Position numbers and translations under genes: made by a program
Origin: Gammaproteobacteria bacterium
GTDB lineage: Bacteria; Pseudomonadota; Gammaproteobacteria; Natronospirales; JAJUFS01
Assembly: GCA_036381175.1 (NCBI GenBank)
Contig: DASVDI010000005.1
Coordinates: 129 to 64,128, forward strand
DNA length: 64,000 nt
Direction of reading: 5' to 3'
Notes under the pieces: generated by a model
What the model was told of the DNA's origin: nothing
Databases searched by the model: none
What the model saw: the letters and a program-made list of their open reading frames with translations, nothing else
Part shown: positions 35,778-43,184 of the stretch, piece by piece
Numbering within the stretch: the first letter of the stretch is position 1
How the letters are laid out: every line of letters begins with the position of its first letter

Positions 35778-36242
35778 ATGACCGAGCAATCCGTTGACCG
35801 CGGCGCGATTGCGGCATGGCGCGTCAGTTCGGCGCTGGTCGGCGCATTCGTGCTGCTCGTCTTCGCCGTCGTCGCGTTCACCTCCAGGCTGCCGGTGTCA
35901 TTGACGGTCCCCGTCCTGCTCCTGCTGTTCGCGATTGTCGTTGTGTTGACGTGGTGGCATCCCGCGGCGACGTACCGGCATTTGCGTTATTCGATTGACG
36001 AGGCGGGGATTACCATTCGCGCCGGCATTTTCTGGCGCACGCAATCCGCACTCGCGCGCGTGCGCATCCAGCACACCGATGTCGCGCAGGGACCGCTGCA
36101 GCGGCATTACGGCATCGCGACGCTGAAGCTTTACACCGCCGGCAGTCATTACACGAAAATAGAACTCCCCGGTCTCGCGCATGAAACCGCCATCGCGCTG
36201 CGCAACGAGTTACGGCAGGAAGGAGACGGCGATGCCGTCTGA
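35778..36242 (+). CDS. Bacterial PH-domain membrane protein (YdbS-like, bPH_2)
   Basis: Two TM helices, then RYSIDEAGITIRAGIFWRTQSALARVRIQHTDVAQGPLQRHYGIATLKLYTAG. Confidence 0.75.
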   Translation: MTEQSVDRGAIAAWRVSSALVGAFVLLVFAVVAFTSRLPVSLTVPVLLLLFAIVVVLTWWHPAATYRHLRYSIDEAGITIRAGIFWRTQSALARVRIQHTDVAQGPLQRHYGIATLKLYTAGSHYTKIELPGLAHETAIALRNELRQEGDGDAV

Positions 36243-37743
36243 TGCGCCCAGTGGTGAGTTCACGCCGCAGAAACGCCTGCATGGATTGTCGTGGATTTTC
36301 GTCGCGGTGGATTACATCCGGCATTTCATCGTCCCGCTGATTGCCGCCGTCGTGCTCGGCGCGCAGGACGATTACGCGTTGTGGGGCCTCGTGCTGGTCG
36401 TGCCGCTCGTTATCGGCGCCGTGTGGCAGCAATGGATTTACCGCTACGATTTCGGTCCCAGCGGCCTCGTGATCCACGAAGGACTTTTCTTTCGCAATGT
36501 CCGCAACATCGATTACGGACGGATCGAAAACGTCGATACGGAACGGAATCTCCTGCATCGATTGTTCGATGTCGCACAGGTGCGCGTGGAGACATCCAGC
36601 GGCGGGCGTTCAGAAGCGGTGATTCGCGTGCTGGGCTTGCCTGCCGTCAAGGAAATGCGCGAACGCATTTTCAGTGCGCGCGACGACGTCGCAACCGCTG
36701 ACGAGAATCACGAACCTGACGTCGCGGAAACCTTGCTGCATCTCGGGCTCGGCGAACTCGTGCGTTACGGGTTGATCGACAACCGCGGCGTCATCGTGGT
36801 CGCAGCCTTGTTCGGTCTGCTCGCGCAAGGCGGAATGTACCAGGCGATGGAAGACTGGCTCGCGCCTTTGATCGAACAACTGCCATTCGCGGATTTCGCC
36901 GCCATCGGTCCGCTTGCGCAGGCATTTTTCATCCTCTCAACCATTGCGGGGTTGGTTGCGGGCACGCGGCTTCTTTCCATCCTGATCGCCTTCATCACGC
37001 TCCACGATTTTCGATTGACCAGGAACGATGAAGACCTGCGCGTGCATCACGGACTGTTCACGCGCCTGGCGCTCACAATGCGACGCCCGCGCATCCAGGT
37101 CGTGCATCAAAAAGCGTCGTTGCTGCACCGTCTTTTCAAACGCGTTTCCTTGCGCGTGGATCTCGCCGGCGGAATGGCGGCGAGCAATGGACAGAACGCG
37201 CAGCAAGGACAAACGAGAAAGTTGTGGCTCGCGCCCGTCGCAACGCCCGAGAAAGCCGGCGAGCTTATCCGCATCGCGCTGCCGGGCGTTCATCTTGAGG
37301 GACTCGACTGGCAGCAATTGTCGCCACGCGCGCAGTGGCGTTTGTTCCGGCTGTTGAGCGGAATCTGGCTGGTGATTTCCGCAGCGCCGGCAATCTTTTT
37401 CCTGGGCTGGTGGGCGCCTGCCATCGTGCTGCCCGTCATGCCGTTGCTCTGGTTGTACGCGCGCATGTACGTGAAGTACACGCGCTGGGCGCTGCATGAC
37501 GATTTTTTCGTCTTTCGCCGCGGCTGGCTGACGCGACGATTATCAATCGCGCCGCGCAATCGCATCCAGAGCGTGCGCGTTTCGGAATCGCCCTTCGATC
37601 GCCGCTATCGCATGGCGGGGCTTGGCGTGGATACCGCCGGCGCAAGCGCCGGACAGATACGCATTCCCTTCCTTGATCGCGATGCAGCCAGAATGCTCGC
37701 ACACGCGCTTTACGCACCGAAGTTTCAGCGCGGCGCGTTGTAA
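36232..37743 (+). CDS. YdbT-like membrane protein with three bPH_2 repeats
   Basis: ATG 36232 overlaps the ydbS-like stop. Repeated motifs: FRNVRNIDYGRIENVD.., HHGLFTRLALTMRRPRIQVV.., RRGWLTRRLSIAPRNRIQSV... Confidence 0.75.
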   Translation: MPSDAPSGEFTPQKRLHGLSWIFVAVDYIRHFIVPLIAAVVLGAQDDYALWGLVLVVPLVIGAVWQQWIYRYDFGPSGLVIHEGLFFRNVRNIDYGRIENVDTERNLLHRLFDVAQVRVETSSGGRSEAVIRVLGLPAVKEMRERIFSARDDVATADENHEPDVAETLLHLGLGELVRYGLIDNRGVIVVAALFGLLAQGGMYQAMEDWLAPLIEQLPFADFAAIGPLAQAFFILSTIAGLVAGTRLLSILIAFITLHDFRLTRNDEDLRVHHGLFTRLALTMRRPRIQVVHQKASLLHRLFKRVSLRVDLAGGMAASNGQNAQQGQTRKLWLAPVATPEKAGELIRIALPGVHLEGLDWQQLSPRAQWRLFRLLSGIWLVISAAPAIFFLGWWAPAIVLPVMPLLWLYARMYVKYTRWALHDDFFVFRRGWLTRRLSIAPRNRIQSVRVSESPFDRRYRMAGLGVDTAGASAGQIRIPFLDRDAARMLAHALYAPKFQRGAL

Positions 37744-38849: not shown

Positions 38850-39145
38850 GACGCGCGGTATCGCAAAAAAACAGGGGATTTACCATACATAAAAGGGTGC
38901 AGGTTTCCGGTTACGCGCAGGCACATATATAAAAGGTCACAGCCTGGAGCTCGCCGGGAAGAACGAATCGCGTCGCCCGTTCGCCTGGTCGCGCCGTCCC
39001 GGCCCGCCCACCCTCGAATAAAAGTGAACCTCCGGCGGAACCCGGAGGATTCACGGTCGAGCCACTGCGCATCCGCGCGTCATGCGCGTTCCGGATGAGC
39101 GGTGGCGACGCGAATTCGAGTCAAACCGCTCTGTGGAGGTGGGTC

Positions 39146-40093
39146 ATGTCTTTAAACACGCCGTTACCGGGAAGAATCCTGTCCCGTTCGTTAACAGCCA
39201 CGGCAGGTCGCTGGCTGCTGCTGTTGGCGGTCGGTTTCGTATTGGTGCTGGGAGGCTGCGGTGGCGGCGGCGGCGGTGGCGGCGGAACGACACCGCCACC
39301 GCCGGACAATGGTGGTGGTGACGGAGGCGGCGATGGTGGCGGTGACGGTGGTGGCGACGATACCGCCATCGAACCCACACTCGCATCCATACAGGAGAAT
39401 GTCTTCACGCCGATCTGCACCCAGTGCCACACGGGCGGGTCTGCGCCACAAGGCTTGCGCCTGGAAGCCGGCGTTTCCTACGGCATGCTGGTGAACGTCG
39501 CCAGCGTGGAGGTGCCGGAACTCCTCCGCGTGAATCCCGGCAATCCGGACGACAGCTACCTGATCCACAAGCTGGAAGGCTCGCAAGCCGTCGGTGAACG
39601 CATGCCGCTGGGCGGACCTTACCTCTCCGAAGACACTATCGCGGCCATTCGCCAATGGATCACGGATGGCGCGCCCGAGACCGCCACGGCGGGAACACAG
39701 GGCAAGACGACCTTGACCGGCGCATGGCCGGTTCCGGACAGCAAGCTCGATGCAGCGCCCGGGCAGATCCTGTTGATCGCGGATGCGGAGCTTGATGTTT
39801 CCCTGCTGCGCGCCGGACTGGTTGAGGTGGTGAACCTGGACGACGTTGATCCCGTCACCCTGCAACCGCGCCCGGTGGAGAATCTGCGCATGCAGATCAC
39901 CTCGCTCGCGCCGACTGTCATCCGGCTTGATGCGCCCGCCGAATCCTGGGGTGCAGGCCACTACGAAGTGCGTGTCGATGGCACGGGCGCGCTTGCGGTG
40001 GCGGACCGTTCCGGGCGGATCATCGACGGCAATGACGACGGCACGCCGGGCGGTGATTTTGTCCTGAACTTCGAAATCGAGCCCGCCCGGTGA
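39146..40093 (+). CDS. Lipoprotein with a mono-haem c-type cytochrome domain (PSCyt1-like) and a C-terminal Ig-like domain
   Basis: GGAGG RBS, the lipobox LVLGGC, and a Gly9 + (GGGD)4 linker. The cytochrome part reads FTPICTQCHTGGSAPQGLRLE..NPGNPDDSYLIHKL..MPLGGPYLSEDTIAAIRQWITDGAP. The CXXCH motif is read directly from the sequence. Confidence 0.7.
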   Translation: MSLNTPLPGRILSRSLTATAGRWLLLLAVGFVLVLGGCGGGGGGGGGTTPPPPDNGGGDGGGDGGGDGGGDDTAIEPTLASIQENVFTPICTQCHTGGSAPQGLRLEAGVSYGMLVNVASVEVPELLRVNPGNPDDSYLIHKLEGSQAVGERMPLGGPYLSEDTIAAIRQWITDGAPETATAGTQGKTTLTGAWPVPDSKLDAAPGQILLIADAELDVSLLRAGLVEVVNLDDVDPVTLQPRPVENLRMQITSLAPTVIRLDAPAESWGAGHYEVRVDGTGALAVADRSGRIIDGNDDGTPGGDFVLNFEIEPAR

Positions 40094-41196
40094 GGGTGGT
40101 TGCAGCGCTCGCGAGCCTCGCCGGACTGGGGCTCGCGTTGCTGTTCGGGACGCCGGCAAATGCGGAGCCATGGATCGCCGTCAAGGAGGGCATGAAGTGC
40201 GCGAGCTGCCATGTGAATGCGACCGGCGGCGGCATGCGCACCGAGTACGGCAACCTCTATGCACAGATGACCTTGTCGGCGAGACAATTCGCCACCGACG
40301 GGGCTGCCAACGACAAGCCATGGACCGGGCGCTTGAACGAGTACGTCGCAGTGGGTGGCAACCTGCGCGCGAATGCGAATTTCGCGGACATCCCGGACCA
40401 GGATAGCCAGTTCGCGTTCGATCTCGAGGAAACGCGGCTTTACCTGGATTTCAGCCCACTGCCCGGCCGTGTCGATATCTACCTTGACCAGCACATCGCG
40501 CCGGGCGGCAGCTTCAACCTTGAGGCGTATGCCCGTTACTGGTCGGCGGATCACGACTGGTACATCAAGGCCGGACAGATGTATCTGCCGTTCGGCCTGC
40601 GGCTCGAAGATGACAGCGCCTTCATCCGCCAGACGCCGGGCATCAACTTCAACACGCCCGATACCGGTGTGGAGTTCGGCTGGGAAACGGCGCGCTGGAG
40701 TACCCAGATCGCGGTTTCGAATGGCACGGCCGGCGGACCGGAACTGGATACCGGCAAGCAGCTCAGCCTGAGGTCCGTGCACGTGCGTCCGGGATGGCGA
40801 GCCGGCGCGAGCCTCAACGTGAACGACACGGAACTCGGCGAGCGGAACATGCAGAACCTTTTTGCGGGGCTGCGCACCGGGCCGGTTGCATGGCTGGCTG
40901 AGATCGACTTCATCCAGGATGACACCTTCGCCGCCGGCGAGCTGACTCAACAGGCAGGCCTCGTGGAAGCGAACTGGCTGTTTCGCAAAGGTCACAACCT
41001 GAAAGTCACGGCCGAGATACTTGACCCGAATACGGACATCGACGATGACGAGATGAACCGCTACAGCGTGGCGTGGGAATACTTCCCGATTCCTTACCTG
41101 CAACTGCGGCTGGGAACGCGTTTGTACGACGGCATTCCGGATGAAGCCCTGCAAAACCACACGCTGGTTTTCCTGCAAATGCACGGCTATTTCTGA
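40090..41196 (+). CDS. Outer-membrane beta-barrel with a single N-terminal CXXCH motif (Cyc2-like fused cytochrome-porin candidate)
   Basis: GTGA start/stop overlap with the upstream gene. The signal peptide ends ..PANA, and the mature N-terminus is EPWIAVKEGMKCASCHVNATGGG. An alternating beta-strand pattern follows, and the C-terminus is ..QMHGYF (terminal Phe). Confidence 0.6.
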   Translation: MRVVAALASLAGLGLALLFGTPANAEPWIAVKEGMKCASCHVNATGGGMRTEYGNLYAQMTLSARQFATDGAANDKPWTGRLNEYVAVGGNLRANANFADIPDQDSQFAFDLEETRLYLDFSPLPGRVDIYLDQHIAPGGSFNLEAYARYWSADHDWYIKAGQMYLPFGLRLEDDSAFIRQTPGINFNTPDTGVEFGWETARWSTQIAVSNGTAGGPELDTGKQLSLRSVHVRPGWRAGASLNVNDTELGERNMQNLFAGLRTGPVAWLAEIDFIQDDTFAAGELTQQAGLVEANWLFRKGHNLKVTAEILDPNTDIDDDEMNRYSVAWEYFPIPYLQLRLGTRLYDGIPDEALQNHTLVFLQMHGYF

Positions 41197-41213
41197 CGAA
41201 GCTGCGTCGCATT

Positions 41214-41250
41214 CCGGCGAGCCTGGAAGCGAGGCTCGCCGGATTTTTTT
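41214..41250 (+). terminator. Rho-independent terminator
   Basis: CCGGCGAGCC..GGCTCGCCGG stem followed by ATTTTTTT. Confidence 0.8.
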
Positions 41251-41274
41251 ATTCAGTGATGCGCGGCTCCGGTC

Positions 41275-41875: not shown

Positions 41876-42163
41876 TTACCAGCGAGGACGATTGCCGCCA
41901 CCGCCACCACGTGCCGGTTTTTCAGTGGCCATGTTGACCTTGAGCGGACGTCCGCCCATGTCCTTGCCATCCTGTTCCAGTGCCTTTTCCGCCGCCTGCT
42001 GGGAAGCAAACGTGATGAATCCGAAGCCCTTCGGCCGGCCGGTGTCGCGGTCCTTGATCAGCGCAAGATCCTCGATTTCGCCATACGGGGAAAAGAGTTC
42101 GCGCAACTGTTCTTCGTCCACGGTGTACGGGAAGTTGCCGACATACAATTTATTCTGCTTCAT
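41876..42163 (-). CDS. RNA-binding protein with an RRM domain and a Gly/Arg tail
   Basis: LYVGNFPY (RNP-2) and KGFGFITF (RNP-1). The C-terminus is ARGGGGGNRPRW. Confidence 0.88.
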   Translation of the reverse strand: MKQNKLYVGNFPYTVDEEQLRELFSPYGEIEDLALIKDRDTGRPKGFGFITFASQQAAEKALEQDGKDMGGRPLKVNMATEKPARGGGGGNRPRW

Positions 42164-42410
42164 TACCAATACCTGAATTATCGAAACACGGTTGTTTCAG
42201 GGCGGATTCTACCTCAATGGCGCGCCTGTCCTCGAAAACTTCTGACATAACATGTCATTTCGCCTGTTTTTTTTCGAGTCCCAAACACAGGCCTGCGGCT
42301 GAACACGCGCCTCGCCCATTCGCATCCCCGCGCAAGAGGACATATCATCGTCGTTGTTCGGCATCCCCCCAACTTCTCTTCCTGCCACTCGAACAGGAAA
42401 GCACCACAGC

Positions 42411-43184
42411 ATGCTGATTCCCGAGTTGATAAAACGTGCCGTTGTCGGCGAGCAGCGATTCGATTTCATCGAATCGTCAATCAGCATGTCCGACGGAAAA
42501 ATGCTGTCATCGTTGAAAGGCGAGGGACACGCCGACCCCGGCGACAGCTGCTTTCATTTCCGCTCGCGCACGCCGCTCCCTGATAAATGGAAGCAGTATG
42601 GCGACCCGGCCAACGCCGGCGCGACGCCGGACAGCGGTCTCGTGTTTCGTGCCGACGGCATCGAGCGCGGCAGCGCAAGCTGGACCGGCATCGCTACGGG
42701 ATTGCGCGTCATCCAGGGGCGGGCAATCCACGCGAAGGTCAGCGAATGGTCGCGCGCCGACGAACGTTCAGTGCACCTGTCTTTCACACGCGTGGTGATA
42801 CCGGGGCGGCTTGGCTATCCGGTAACCGTTCGGCATTCGGCCGGACACAACGCACGCATGGCGTCCATCGACTGGGAAAACGTCAGGATCGACTTTCGCG
42901 ATTACGACAGTTACACCGAGGTTTGCGCCTACAGCTCCACGGAGCTGCCCGTCTACTTCGCCGAAAGTGTCGTTCACGTACTCGGCAAGATGCTCGACCG
43001 CCAGGTGGGCTGGATCTACCGCGAGCGGCATGCCGACAATCACCGCGTCATCAGCGTAAAGGCGCTGTCATCAGGCATGCGTGACGGGTTGTCCGCCGAC
43101 ACCGGCCCGTCATCCTCGAACTCCACCTCGAGCTACCAGAAATTCTGGCAATCCTGTGCGCGGGAGCTGGCGGCCCTGCTTTGA
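42411..43184 (+). CDS. Hypothetical protein
   Basis: 257 aa from ATG 42411. No signal peptide and no family recognised. Confidence 0.45.
   Translation: MLIPELIKRAVVGEQRFDFIESSISMSDGKMLSSLKGEGHADPGDSCFHFRSRTPLPDKWKQYGDPANAGATPDSGLVFRADGIERGSASWTGIATGLRVIQGRAIHAKVSEWSRADERSVHLSFTRVVIPGRLGYPVTVRHSAGHNARMASIDWENVRIDFRDYDSYTEVCAYSSTELPVYFAESVVHVLGKMLDRQVGWIYRERHADNHRVISVKALSSGMRDGLSADTGPSSSNSTSSYQKFWQSCARELAALL

What the first reader, a model, noticed from the sequence alone, without database searches (positions are those of the whole stretch)
39146..41196. Translationally coupled cytochrome-c lipoprotein and CXXCH-bearing outer-membrane barrel (Cyc2-like electron conduit?)
Gene 1 encodes a lipoprotein (LGGC lipobox). 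It has a Gly9/(GGGD)4 linker, one CTQCH haem motif in a PSCyt1-like domain, and an Ig-like C-terminal domain.

Its TGA overlaps the GTG of gene 2. The mature protein of gene 2 starts EPWIAVKEGMKCASCHVNATGGG, with one CXXCH about 12 residues from the N-terminus, and continues as an amphipathic beta-barrel ending in ..HGYF.

A single N-terminal haem motif fused to a porin defines Cyc2, the outer-membrane Fe(II) oxidase of neutrophilic and acidophilic iron oxidisers.

The pairing with a periplasm- or surface-facing mono-haem lipoprotein suggests a two-component outer-membrane redox module. It sits in a heterotroph-looking genome context, between cfa and MAPEG. Similarity to Cyc2 itself was not measured.
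Basis: partly seen in the sequence, partly recalled or inferred. Interest (0 to 1): 0.6.

Follow-up and report, generated by a model that had tools for sequence, protein, structure and literature searches.

The report
Cyc2-like haem porin with cytochrome lipoprotein
Two overlapping genes encode an outer-membrane pore with a built-in haem site and a lipid-anchored cytochrome c. The pair is an unannotated, distant cousin of the bacterial iron-oxidising proteins Cyc2 and FoxE, so ordinary soil heterotrophs may be able to pass electrons across their outer membrane.

Summary

**Gene 1 (39146-40093)** is a lipoprotein with:
- a Gly-rich tether;
- one c-type haem domain, whose closest solved relative is the iron oxidase FoxE (E 1.7e-8);
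- an Ig-like domain.

**Gene 2 (40090-41196)** overlaps it by GTGA. It has a signal peptide, a roughly 60-residue haem segment and a 16-strand porin barrel (AF2 pLDDT 83).

**Conservation**
- CXXCH is present in every full-length homologue retrieved (236), with free XX positions.
- The gene 1 to gene 2 order and the overlap are conserved in about 85% of related genome loci. These are mainly Steroidobacteraceae, Woeseiaceae and Nevskiales.

**Relation to Cyc2**
- The architecture is that of Cyc2. The haem segment aligns with canonical Cyc2 at 96% HHalign probability over 30 columns.
- The barrels show no detectable sequence similarity.
- The two published Cyc2 signature motifs, PxFAR[QK][TY] and PxL, are not met.
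- I therefore call it a separate, unnamed cytochrome-porin clade with an obligate FoxE-type partner, not a Cyc2 member.

**Regulation and host:** An ECF-sigma-type promoter motif is shared with a frequently adjacent ECF sigma gene. The host has Ccm and haem-copper oxidases but no RuBisCO.

**Function:** A trans-outer-membrane electron conduit is most likely, with Fe(II) oxidation the leading guess. This is inferred, not shown.

The parts
39025..39054 (+). ECF-sigma-type promoter-like motif: TGAACC, 18 nt, ATTCAC
   Evidence: The motif (T)GAAC[CA]-N17-19-A[CT]T[CT]A[CA] lies upstream of gene 1 in 18-27 of 72 related loci, against 0.4-0.5 expected. In relatives the same motif sits 33-100 nt upstream of the adjacent ECF sigma gene. 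No sigma-70 consensus was found in this region.
39146..40093 (+). Gene 1: mono-haem c-type cytochrome lipoprotein, 315 aa
   Evidence: ORF and translation. It has 476 homologues. Invariant features are the lipobox Cys, C..CH, RMP and IRQWI.DGA.
39146..39259 (+). Lipoprotein signal peptide ending in lipobox LGG|C (Cys38)
   Evidence: Read from the sequence. A simple lipobox pattern matches 108 of 120 homologues, and the Cys is invariant in A2. Gly at +2 implies outer-membrane sorting by the E. coli Lol rule, which is an inference.
39260..39361 (+). Gly9-TTPPPPDN-(GGGD)4 flexible tether
   Evidence: Read from the sequence. AF2 pLDDT is below 50 here. Tether length varies and the region is Gly-rich in homologues.
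39362..39676 (+). FoxE-type class I cytochrome c domain (CTQCH at 39416-39430; Met ligand motif RMP)
   Evidence: The domain profile A3 matches FoxE (PDB 5MAB) at E 1.7e-8, covering both FoxE haem domains over positions 14-105 of 109. The next best hit, cytochrome c6, scores 4e-5 and only around CXXCH. Pfam PSCyt1 scores E 0.04.
39707..40090 (+). Ig-like beta-sandwich domain with IDGxDDGxPGGDF motif
   Evidence: AF2 pLDDT is about 90. The best Foldseek hits are CopC 1m42 (E 2.8e-4) and Ig domains. Homologues carry PF13205 Big_5.
40090..41196 (+). Gene 2: fused haem-porin, 368 aa; its GTG start overlaps the gene 1 TGA (GTGA)
   Evidence: ORF and translation. The family has 2297 hits and 1981 clusters at 50% identity.
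40090..40164 (+). Sec signal peptide (25 aa, cleavage ANA|EP)
   Evidence: Read from the sequence. AEP is conserved at the start of the mature protein across the family.
40165..40344 (+). Haem-binding head of about 60 aa, EPWIAVKEGMKCASCHVNATGGGMR (CASCH at 40198-40212)
   Evidence: E26, P27, C37, C40, H41, G46-48 and R50 are conserved at 97-100%. HHalign against canonical Cyc2 gives probability 95.8%, E 8e-9, over 30 columns. A control with an unrelated CXXCH profile gives 44%, E 2.4e-4, over 9 columns.
40345..41193 (+). 16-strand beta-barrel ending HGYF; His365 (41182-41184) is a candidate distal haem ligand
   Evidence: AF2 places 16 strands between residues 86 and 367. Foldseek matches 16-strand porins such as VhChiP, PorB, Omp32 and OprO. 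H365 is 91% conserved in 92 diverse members and is the only conserved His or Met outside CXXCH. Its role as a ligand is an inference.
41213..41253 (+). Intrinsic terminator (12-bp stem with 9 GC pairs, then TTTTTTTATT)
   Evidence: It closes a two-gene operon.

Best explanation
The two genes form one operon under an ECF-sigma-type promoter. Together they encode a two-protein redox module of the outer membrane.

**Gene 2.** The protein is exported by Sec, and the Ccm system attaches one haem c to C37/C40, with H41 as the proximal ligand. The protein is then inserted as a 16-strand barrel. Its roughly 60-residue haem head sits at or in the periplasmic mouth of the barrel, as proposed for Cyc2. 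The conserved His365 on the last strand may be the sixth ligand.

**Gene 1.** The protein is a lipoprotein, probably anchored in the inner leaflet of the outer membrane. A flexible Gly/Pro tether of about 35 residues carries a FoxE-type His/Met cytochrome c domain and an Ig-like domain.

**Proposed electron path.** A small extracellular reductant, most likely Fe(II), reaches the barrel haem through the pore. The electron passes to the tethered cytochrome, which relays it to periplasmic carriers and the haem-copper oxidases.

**What is shown**
- the gene anatomy;
- strict conservation of the haem motifs;
- the barrel fold;
- conserved coupling of the two genes;
- similarity to the Cyc2 haem segment and to FoxE;
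- the shared promoter motif;
- the presence of Ccm and oxidases.

**What is inferred**
- haem attachment;
- topology;
- the partner interaction;
- the direction of electron flow;
- the substrate.
For: - **Haem motif.** CXXCH is present in all 236 full-length family members, with variable XX positions.
- **Fold.** 16-strand barrel, pLDDT 82.8, with porin fold matches.
- **Similarity to Cyc2.**
  - The haem segment aligns to 29 canonical Cyc2 proteins at probability 95.8%, E 8e-9. It shares the layout A|xPx[FLI]A...G[LM]xCxxCH, which starts at the signal-peptidase site.
  - A Cyc2 HMM picks gene 2 as the single best of 247 CXXCH control proteins (13.3 bits against 5.5 or less). It scores family members at 19-28 bits.
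- **Similarity to FoxE.** The gene 1 cytochrome domain matches FoxE at E 1.7e-8.
- **Conserved pairing.**
  - A gene 1 homologue lies directly upstream in 68 of 80 loci, and in all 5 genomes found in the even class sample.
  - The gene 1 stop lies 50-80 nt before the first mature codon of gene 2 in 61 of 67 loci.
- **Regulation.**
  - The ECF promoter motif is enriched about 40-fold upstream of gene 1. It is also found upstream of the neighbouring ECF sigma gene.
  - The ECF sigma, anti-sigma, S8 and Gcw_chp cluster lies within 6 kb in 38 of 80 loci.
- **Host capacity.** The genome has CcmC/E/F and five COX1-family hits.
- **Precedent.** Cyc2 proteins of 389 aa with a haem inside a 16-strand barrel oxidise Fe(II) in vitro (PMC13692758; PMC8406198).
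Against: - The barrel shows no sequence similarity to Cyc2 barrels (HHalign probability 1.4%).
- The Cyc2 signature motifs PxFAR[QK][TY] and PxL are absent.
- The similarity to Cyc2 spans only 30 columns, and part of it is the CXXCH itself. The control profile reaches 44%, E 2.4e-4.
- The host lacks RuBisCO and looks heterotrophic. The carriers, Steroidobacter, Povalibacter and Woeseiaceae, are not known iron oxidisers.
- The lipoprotein could instead face the cell surface.
- ECF control would also fit a stress or detoxification role rather than respiration.
Confidence: 0.5

Rival explanations
1. The same two-protein conduit is used for protection rather than energy. An ECF-sigma envelope-stress response switches it on, and it oxidises toxic reduced metals (Fe2+, Cu+, Mn2+) or scavenges peroxide at the cell envelope.
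For: - The ECF-type promoter and the linked ECF sigma, anti-sigma and S8 protease cluster.
- The heterotrophic host, which lacks RuBisCO.
- The Ig-like domain, whose best structural match is the copper-binding protein CopC.
- The absence of a conserved Met, and the presence of only one conserved His beyond CXXCH, leave room for an open coordination site.
Against: - The CopC match is a generic Ig-fold match (E 2.8e-4, TM 0.59).
- No peroxidase-type motifs were found.
- The closest characterised relatives, Cyc2 and FoxE, are respiratory or phototrophic electron-donor oxidases.
Confidence: 0.2
2. The conduit runs outward. Electrons from the periplasm leave through the haem-porin, possibly to a surface-exposed lipoprotein cytochrome, and reduce extracellular acceptors such as Fe(III), Mn(IV) or humic substances when oxygen is scarce.
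For: - Lipoprotein cytochromes with Ig-like domains are surface-exposed in Mtr-type systems (general knowledge of MtrC/OmcA).
- Big_5, Big_7 and CHRD domains in paralogous lipoprotein cytochromes look like extracellular modules.
- Cyc2TAG1 has a low midpoint potential of -130 mV, so haem-porins are not intrinsically limited to uptake (PMC13692758).
Against: - A single haem in a 16-strand barrel cannot by itself bridge the membrane to a surface protein.
- No multihaem cytochromes are linked to the pair.
- FoxE and Cyc2 both act as oxidases of Fe(II).
- The N-terminus of a porin normally lies on the periplasmic side.
Confidence: 0.12
3. Gene 2 is an ordinary diffusion or uptake porin, for example of the phosphate or siderophore-porin type. 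In this reading the haem is structural or regulatory, or the pore handles haem or iron uptake, and gene 1 is an unrelated periplasmic cytochrome.
For: - Some homologues carry precomputed PF07396 Porin_O_P hits.
- There is a weak NCBIfam LbtU siderophore-porin hit (E 0.0037).
- The fold matches general porins.
Against: - The window protein itself has no Pfam hit at E of 1 or less.
- A porin with 65% mean column identity and an invariant CXXCH is not a typical diffusion pore.
- The cytochrome partner is translationally coupled in about 85% of loci.
- Canonical Cyc2 is also OprO/P-like in fold (PMC8406198).
Confidence: 0.1

Closest known systems
Cyc2 fused cytochrome-porins (A. ferrooxidans Cyc2, Mariprofundus Cyc2PV-1, Ghiorsea Cyc2TAG1, Leptospirillum Cyt572; clusters 1-3 of McAllister 2020 and Keffer 2021)
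   Same: - Signal peptide and one CXXCH about 12 residues into the mature chain.
- A short haem head that is too small to be a free-standing cytochrome.
- A 16-strand porin barrel of 370-480 aa.
- A mature N-terminus with the layout xPx[FLI]A-x3-G[LM]xCxxCH at identical spacing.
- A specific profile-profile match of the head.
   Different: - No PxFAR[QK][TY] motif; this family has EPY[FL]AV[RKQ].
- No PxL after the haem motif; this family has HVNPTGGG[MK]R.
- The barrel is not alignable, and it is far more conserved within this family.
- A conserved His four residues from the C-terminus.
- An obligate upstream FoxE-type lipoprotein gene, which none of 30 canonical Cyc2 loci has within 1.5 kb.
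- Rarer: 5 of 400 class genomes against 44 of 401.
FoxE, di-haem Fe(II):cytochrome oxidoreductase of Rhodobacter ferrooxidans SW2 (PDB 5MAB)
   Same: The gene 1 cytochrome domain aligns with both FoxE haem domains over about 90 residues. Shared elements are CxxCH, PGdP, rMP (the Met ligand) and WI..GA (E 1.7e-8).
   Different: - Gene 1 has one haem domain, although homologues of about 400 aa have two. It also has a lipid anchor, a Gly-rich tether and an Ig-like domain.
- FoxE is a soluble periplasmic protein encoded with foxY and foxZ, not with a porin (function and operon from my own knowledge and PMC10654088).
Porin-cytochrome complexes MtrCAB, MtoAB and PioAB
   Same: An outer-membrane barrel works with c-type cytochromes, one of which can be a lipoprotein, to move electrons across the outer membrane. 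The genes are co-transcribed.
   Different: Those systems use 26-strand barrels that sheathe separate decahaem cytochromes (PMC8406198). Here the barrel has 16 strands and carries its own single haem, and the partner is mono-haem.
General and phosphate-selective 16-strand porins (VhChiP, PorB, Omp32, OprO/OprP)
   Same: Barrel fold, with Foldseek E 6.5e-13 to 5.8e-10 and TM about 0.6.
   Different: Those porins have no haem motif and no cytochrome partner. No sequence match to any PDB chain was found.

Membership tests
Cyc2 (criteria of Keffer et al. 2021, PMC8406198) | N-terminal signal peptide | tested here: met
   MRVVAALASLAGLGLALLFGTPANA|EP. The cleavage-site context is conserved in A1. 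This was read from the sequence; no SignalP run was made.
Cyc2 (criteria of Keffer et al. 2021, PMC8406198) | Single CXXCH haem c motif near the mature N-terminus | tested here: met
   CASCH at residues 37-41. The motif occurs as one copy in all 121 close homologues, and it is present in all 115 N-terminally complete cluster representatives.
Cyc2 (criteria of Keffer et al. 2021, PMC8406198) | 16-strand outer-membrane porin fused C-terminally | tested here: met
   AF2 gives 16 strands at pLDDT 82.8, and Foldseek matches porins.
Cyc2 (criteria of Keffer et al. 2021, PMC8406198) | (A)xPxFAR[Q/K][T/Y] motif upstream of CXXCH | tested here: not met
   The window has AEPWIAVKE and the family consensus is AEPY[FL]AV[RKQ]x. 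Only A-x-P-x-[FLI]-A and the spacing are shared. A pattern scan for the motif finds no copy in the window's own genome.
Cyc2 (criteria of Keffer et al. 2021, PMC8406198) | PxL motif 4 residues after CXXCH | tested here: not met
   The window has CH-VNATGGGMR and the family consensus is HVNPTGGG[MK]R. Canonical Cyc2 has CH-TVFP[EQ]L.
Cyc2 (criteria of Keffer et al. 2021, PMC8406198) | Length of at least 365 aa and blastp E of 1e-5 or better to a Cyc2 representative | tested here: not met
   The length of 368 aa passes. The best tblastn hit to canonical Cyc2 loci is E 2e-4 in a database of only about 100 kb. The Cyc2 HMM gives 13.3 bits. Detectable similarity is limited to a 30-column profile-profile match.
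Cyc2 (criteria of Keffer et al. 2021, PMC8406198) | Fe(II) oxidase activity and recognition by the FeGenie Cyc2 HMMs | not testable with these tools
   The FeGenie profiles are not available here. Pfam and NCBIfam have no model that recognises even canonical Cyc2.
FoxE-type cytochrome c domain | Class I c-type domain with CxxCH, a distal Met in rMP, and C-terminal WI..GA, alignable over the whole domain | tested here: met
   Profile A3 against 5MAB gives E 1.7e-8 with two stretches covering positions 14-105 of 109. M79, P80, W97, G101 and A102 are invariant.
FoxE protein (foxEYZ system) | Soluble di-haem periplasmic protein encoded with foxY and foxZ | tested here: not met
   Gene 1 has one haem domain, a lipobox and an Ig-like domain, and it sits in an operon with a haem-porin. 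The genome was not searched for foxY or foxZ.
Phosphate-selective porin O/P (PF07396) | Match to the Pfam model above the gathering score | tested here: not met
   The window protein has no Pfam hit at E of 1 or less. A minority of homologues carry precomputed PF07396 hits.

The most novel reading that the evidence does not exclude
This pair is the type of a widespread, unnamed outer-membrane metal-oxidising wire that is controlled by an ECF sigma factor. It joins a haem-porin that is a deep sister of Cyc2, or convergent with it, to a tethered FoxE-type cytochrome. Through it, common aerobic heterotrophs of soils and sediments (Steroidobacteraceae, Woeseiaceae, Nevskiales) would oxidise Fe(II) or other extracellular reductants. 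Current marker-gene surveys such as the FeGenie Cyc2 models would miss this cryptic iron or redox cycling.
Probability: 0.3. Interest if true: 0.8.

Novelty: new variant of a known kind. Interest (0 to 1): 0.6.

Why it matters
Cyc2 is the main marker gene used to map microbial iron oxidation. This second clade is built the same way but fails the Cyc2 sequence filters. It holds about 2,000 clusters at 50% identity in public data. It always travels with a cytochrome related to the other classical iron oxidase, FoxE.

If it moves electrons across the outer membrane, two things follow:
- Abundant soil and sediment heterotrophs take part in extracellular redox chemistry unnoticed.
- The pair offers a minimal two-protein system, with one haem in each protein, for studying trans-outer-membrane electron transfer and how an ECF sigma factor controls it.

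Cultured carriers exist: Steroidobacter, Povalibacter and Peristeroidobacter type strains. The hypothesis can therefore be tested directly.

Tried and rejected
- **Library scans.** Pfam and NCBIfam scans of both proteins gave only sub-threshold hits. Canonical Cyc2 proteins also hit nothing in the same libraries, so the silence says nothing about membership.
- **Barrel comparison.** HHalign of the barrel alone against Cyc2 barrels, in local, low-mact and global modes, showed no signal.
- **Solved structures.** A sequence search of the PDB with the haem-porin profile gave nothing.
- **Checking the Cyc2 reference set by name.** All hits were 'hypothetical protein'. The set therefore rests on the published motif criterion alone.
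- **Literature.** Searches for Cyc2 with Steroidobacter or Woeseia, and for cytochrome-porin with lipoprotein and monohaem, found no description of this clade. Absence in the held library is not proof of absence.
- **Neighbour clustering.** ORF-based clustering was polluted by high-GC shadow ORFs.
  - I rejected 'smallcyt' and 'orf352' in Steroidobacter as shadows of one 587-aa minus-strand gene.
  - The terminator-like hairpin inside the gene 2 signal-peptide coding region (40110-40137) was rejected as coding sequence.
- **Own genome.** No paralogues, no canonical Cyc2 and no RuBisCO were found.
Full report
**1. Observation**

Gene 1 (39146-40093, +) encodes 315 aa:
- The signal peptide ends in the lipobox LGG|C at Cys38.
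- After the Cys come nine Gly, then TTPPPPDN, then four GGGD repeats.
- CTQCH lies at residues 91-95, followed by a C-terminal beta-rich domain.
- A GGAGG Shine-Dalgarno sequence lies 5 nt before the ATG.

Gene 2 (40090-41196, +) starts at the GTG of GTGA, which overlaps the gene 1 stop:
- It encodes a 25-aa signal peptide (…ANA|EP).
- The mature protein starts EPWIAVKEGMKCASCH… and ends …HGYF.

A strong intrinsic terminator follows at 41213-41253. The flanking genes are a cyclopropane-fatty-acid synthase and a MAPEG protein, both on the other strand. The unit is therefore a two-gene operon.

**2. Is the haem motif real?**

Gene 2 belongs to a large family:
- 2297 hits at 90% clustering;
- 1981 clusters at 50% identity, of which 298 score below 1e-30.

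All 121 listed close homologues have exactly one CXXCH at the same place, with about 30 different XX pairs. Of the 149 further 50%-cluster representatives (150 were listed, one of them already among the close homologues), 115 have an intact N-terminus and all 115 carry the motif. The other 34 are N-terminal fragments, frameshifted calls or miscalled starts that begin just after the motif.

In 92 diverse members (27-54% identical to the window protein) these positions are 97-100% conserved: E26, P27, C37, C40, H41, G46-48 and R50. The only other conserved His or Met is H365, four residues from the C-terminus (91%).

The host has a System I maturation cluster (CcmC, CcmE, CcmF on contig 10) and five haem-copper-oxidase family hits.

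**3. Fold**

- The AF2 model of gene 2 (pLDDT 82.8, pTM 0.79) has 16 beta strands from residue 86 to 367. Two short helices and a low-confidence loop around the haem motif precede them.
- Foldseek finds 16-strand porins: VhChiP, PorB, Omp32, BpsOmp38 and OprO, with E 6.5e-13 to 5.8e-10.
- The roughly 60-residue head is too short for an independent cytochrome fold.
- The AF2 model of gene 1 (pLDDT 76) shows a disordered tether, a helical cytochrome domain and a confident Ig-like sandwich. The best PDB match for the sandwich is CopC, which is a generic Ig-fold match.

**4. The pair is a conserved module**

- In 80 genome loci holding a gene 2 relative, a gene 1 homologue lies directly upstream on the same strand in 68. 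Most exceptions are truncated contigs.
- The carriers are mostly Steroidobacteraceae, including cultured Steroidobacter, Peristeroidobacter and Povalibacter. Woeseiaceae and Nevskiales are also represented.
- The gene 1 stop lies 50-80 nt before the first mature codon of gene 2 in 61 of 67 loci. That places it inside or at the start of the signal-peptide coding region, so the overlap or abutment is conserved.
- In an even sample of 400 genomes of the class, 5 carry the family, and all 5 have the partner gene adjacent.
- Gene 1 homologues come in two forms: about 300 aa (cytochrome, Ig) and about 400 aa (cytochrome, Ig, cytochrome).
- In the alignment of 37 gene 1 homologues of 273-342 aa, the lipobox Cys, C..CH, RMP and IRQWI.DGA are invariant or nearly so.

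**5. Comparison with Cyc2**

Keffer et al. 2021 (PMC8406198) define Cyc2 by:
- a signal peptide;
- one CXXCH;
- a 16-strand OprO/P-like porin;
- the motif (A)xPxFAR[Q/K][T/Y] before the haem site;
- PxL after the haem site;
- a length of at least 365 aa;
- blastp similarity.

Neither Pfam nor NCBIfam recognises canonical Cyc2. I therefore built a reference set myself. A DNA pattern for PxFAR[QK][TY]-x3-CxxCH was scanned over 401 evenly drawn genomes of the class. It hit 44 genomes, none with the reversed control pattern and none in the window's own genome. From the 30 loci returned, I extracted 29 proteins of 396-483 aa, all starting A[VI]PSFARQTG[LM]xCxxCHTxFPxL….

Profile-profile comparison gave these results:

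| Comparison | Probability | E-value | Columns |
|---|---|---|---|
| Haem segment of this family vs Cyc2 | 95.8% | 8e-9 | 30 |
| Barrel of this family vs Cyc2 barrels | 1.4% | 0.038 | 19 |
| Control: FoxE-type CXXCH profile vs Cyc2 head | 44% | 2.4e-4 | 9 |

- The spacing is identical in both families: A|xPx[FLI]A-x3-G[LM]x-CxxCH, beginning at the signal-peptidase site.
- The Cyc2 HMM, run against 247 CXXCH-bearing control proteins, scores only gene 2 (13.3 bits; next best 5.5).
- The family HMM gives 28 of 29 canonical Cyc2 proteins 7-16 bits, against 5.4 or less for the controls.

The head is therefore specifically Cyc2-like. However, the two signature motifs are not met: the family has EPY[FL]AV[RKQ] and HVNPTGGG[MK]R. 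The barrel cannot be aligned. One genome (G282) carries both kinds. None of the 30 canonical Cyc2 loci has a gene-1-type partner within 1.5 kb.

My reading is that this is a separate clade of fused cytochrome-porins. It is either a deep sister of Cyc2 or a barrel that acquired a Cyc2-type head. It is not a member of Cyc2 as currently defined.

**6. The partner is FoxE-like**

A profile of the gene 1 cytochrome domain was built from 24 diverse copies, including second domains and a paralogous lipoprotein. It matches FoxE of Rhodobacter ferrooxidans (PDB 5MAB) at E 1.7e-8. The match covers both FoxE haem domains over nearly the whole domain: CxxCH, PGdP, rMP and WI..GA. The next best hits, c6 cytochromes, score 4e-5 and align only around CXXCH.

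So the closest characterised relatives of both proteins are Fe(II) oxidases. This is remote homology and does not prove function.

**7. Regulation and wider context**

- In 38 of 80 loci, a cluster of ECF sigma factor, zf-HC2 anti-sigma, S8 peptidase and, usually, a Gcw_chp barrel lies within 6 kb. It can lie on either side of the pair.
- The motif (T)GAAC[CA]-N17-19-A[CT]T[CT]A[CA] occurs upstream of gene 1 in 18-27 of 72 loci, against 0.4-0.5 expected. The window copy is at 39025-39054.
- Nearly all other occurrences in these loci lie in one of three places:
  - 33-100 nt upstream of the adjacent ECF sigma gene, which is the usual sign of an autoregulated ECF promoter;
  - upstream of a divergent lipoprotein gene (Ig, 2x CHRD, and the same FoxE-type cytochrome domain);
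  - upstream of Gcw_chp.
- In the window's genome the ECF, anti-sigma and S8 cluster is unlinked, on contig 53. It is preceded by TGAACT-N17-AATCAA.
- No sigma-70 consensus lies upstream of gene 1.
- Membership of the operon in this ECF regulon is a well-supported inference, but it has not been shown.

**8. Host**

- The 2.8-Mb genome (94% complete, 60% GC) has no RuBisCO, no canonical Cyc2 and no paralogue of either gene.
- The nearest relative is a soil metagenome-assembled genome labelled only 'Gammaproteobacteria bacterium', at 89% identity.

**9. Mechanism proposed**

*Shown:* the anatomy, conservation, fold, coupling, similarities and promoter motif described above.

*Inferred:*
1. Ccm attaches haem to C37/C40 of gene 2 and C91/C94 of gene 1.
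2. The haem head plugs the periplasmic mouth of the barrel. H41 is the proximal ligand. H365 may be the distal ligand, because Q363, H365 and F367 would share the lumen-facing side of the last strand.
3. The lipoprotein has Gly at +2 and is anchored in the outer membrane. Its 35-residue tether lets the FoxE-type domain shuttle between the barrel haem and periplasmic or inner-membrane acceptors.
4. The donor is a small reductant entering the pore, most likely Fe(II).

Rival readings are a stress or detoxification role under ECF control, outward electron transfer, or a plain porin with a structural haem. They are scored separately.

**10. Prior knowledge**

The literature held here has no description of this clade. 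Earlier agents of this scan reported the same kind of pair in other genomes. Some also noted a sigma-factor link and a FoxE-like partner. I treat these as leads. The FoxE match, the ECF link and the Cyc2 relationship were all tested again here.

**11. Verdict**

This is a real, strongly conserved two-gene module. It is a new variant of the fused cytochrome-porin kind, not a Cyc2 member. Its function as a trans-outer-membrane electron conduit is plausible (about 0.5 for the reading committed to above, that the conduit takes up electrons from a donor such as Fe(II); about 0.35-0.4 that the donor is specifically Fe(II)). The idea can be tested directly in cultured Steroidobacteraceae.

Noticed in passing
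window 39029-39048 (both strands), inside the promoter spacer: A perfect 7-bp palindrome, CCTCCGG…CCGGAGG, sits exactly between the -35-like TGAACC and the -10-like ATTCAC of the gene 1 promoter motif. It is also present in the closest relative, L001. It was flagged as a minus-strand terminator-like hairpin, but it could be an operator or an attenuating structure.
   Followed up: partly
own genome, contig C53, about 82.9-85.4 kb (outside the window): An unlinked cluster of a Gcw-like barrel, an ECF sigma factor, an anti-sigma factor and an S8 peptidase lipoprotein. It is orthologous to the cluster that flanks the haem-porin pair in about half of the relatives. It is preceded by TGAACT-N17-AATCAA, which resembles the gene 1 promoter motif.
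   Followed up: partly
L016:3547-5310 (-), Steroidobacter agaridevorans; conserved in 22 of 80 loci: A divergently transcribed 587-aa lipoprotein with a Gly-rich tether, a Big_7 Ig domain, two CHRD domains and a C-terminal FoxE-type cytochrome c domain. It lies behind the same ECF-type promoter motif, next to a Gcw_chp barrel that has no CXXCH. It may be a second lipoprotein-cytochrome and barrel pair.
   Followed up: partly
401 evenly drawn genomes of the class (genome search): The canonical Cyc2 signature PxFAR[QK][TY]-x3-CxxCH occurs in 44 of 401 genomes (11%). There were no hits for the reversed control pattern, and several genomes have 2-3 copies. Public annotation calls these proteins 'hypothetical', and neither Pfam nor NCBIfam has a model for them.
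   Followed up: partly
window 41876-42169 (-): A small 97-aa RRM-domain RNA-binding protein with a Gly/Arg-rich tail (PF00076, 4e-24). It lies just beyond the MAPEG gene.
   Followed up: no
window 35778-37743 (+): Two consecutive bacterial PH-domain (bPH_2) membrane proteins of 154 and 520 aa, upstream of cfa. The second has three bPH_2 repeats (1.3e-40).
   Followed up: no
window 42354-43184 (+): A 276-aa ORF with no Pfam match at E of 0.001 or less, located where the earlier notes place the start of a variable region.
   Followed up: no
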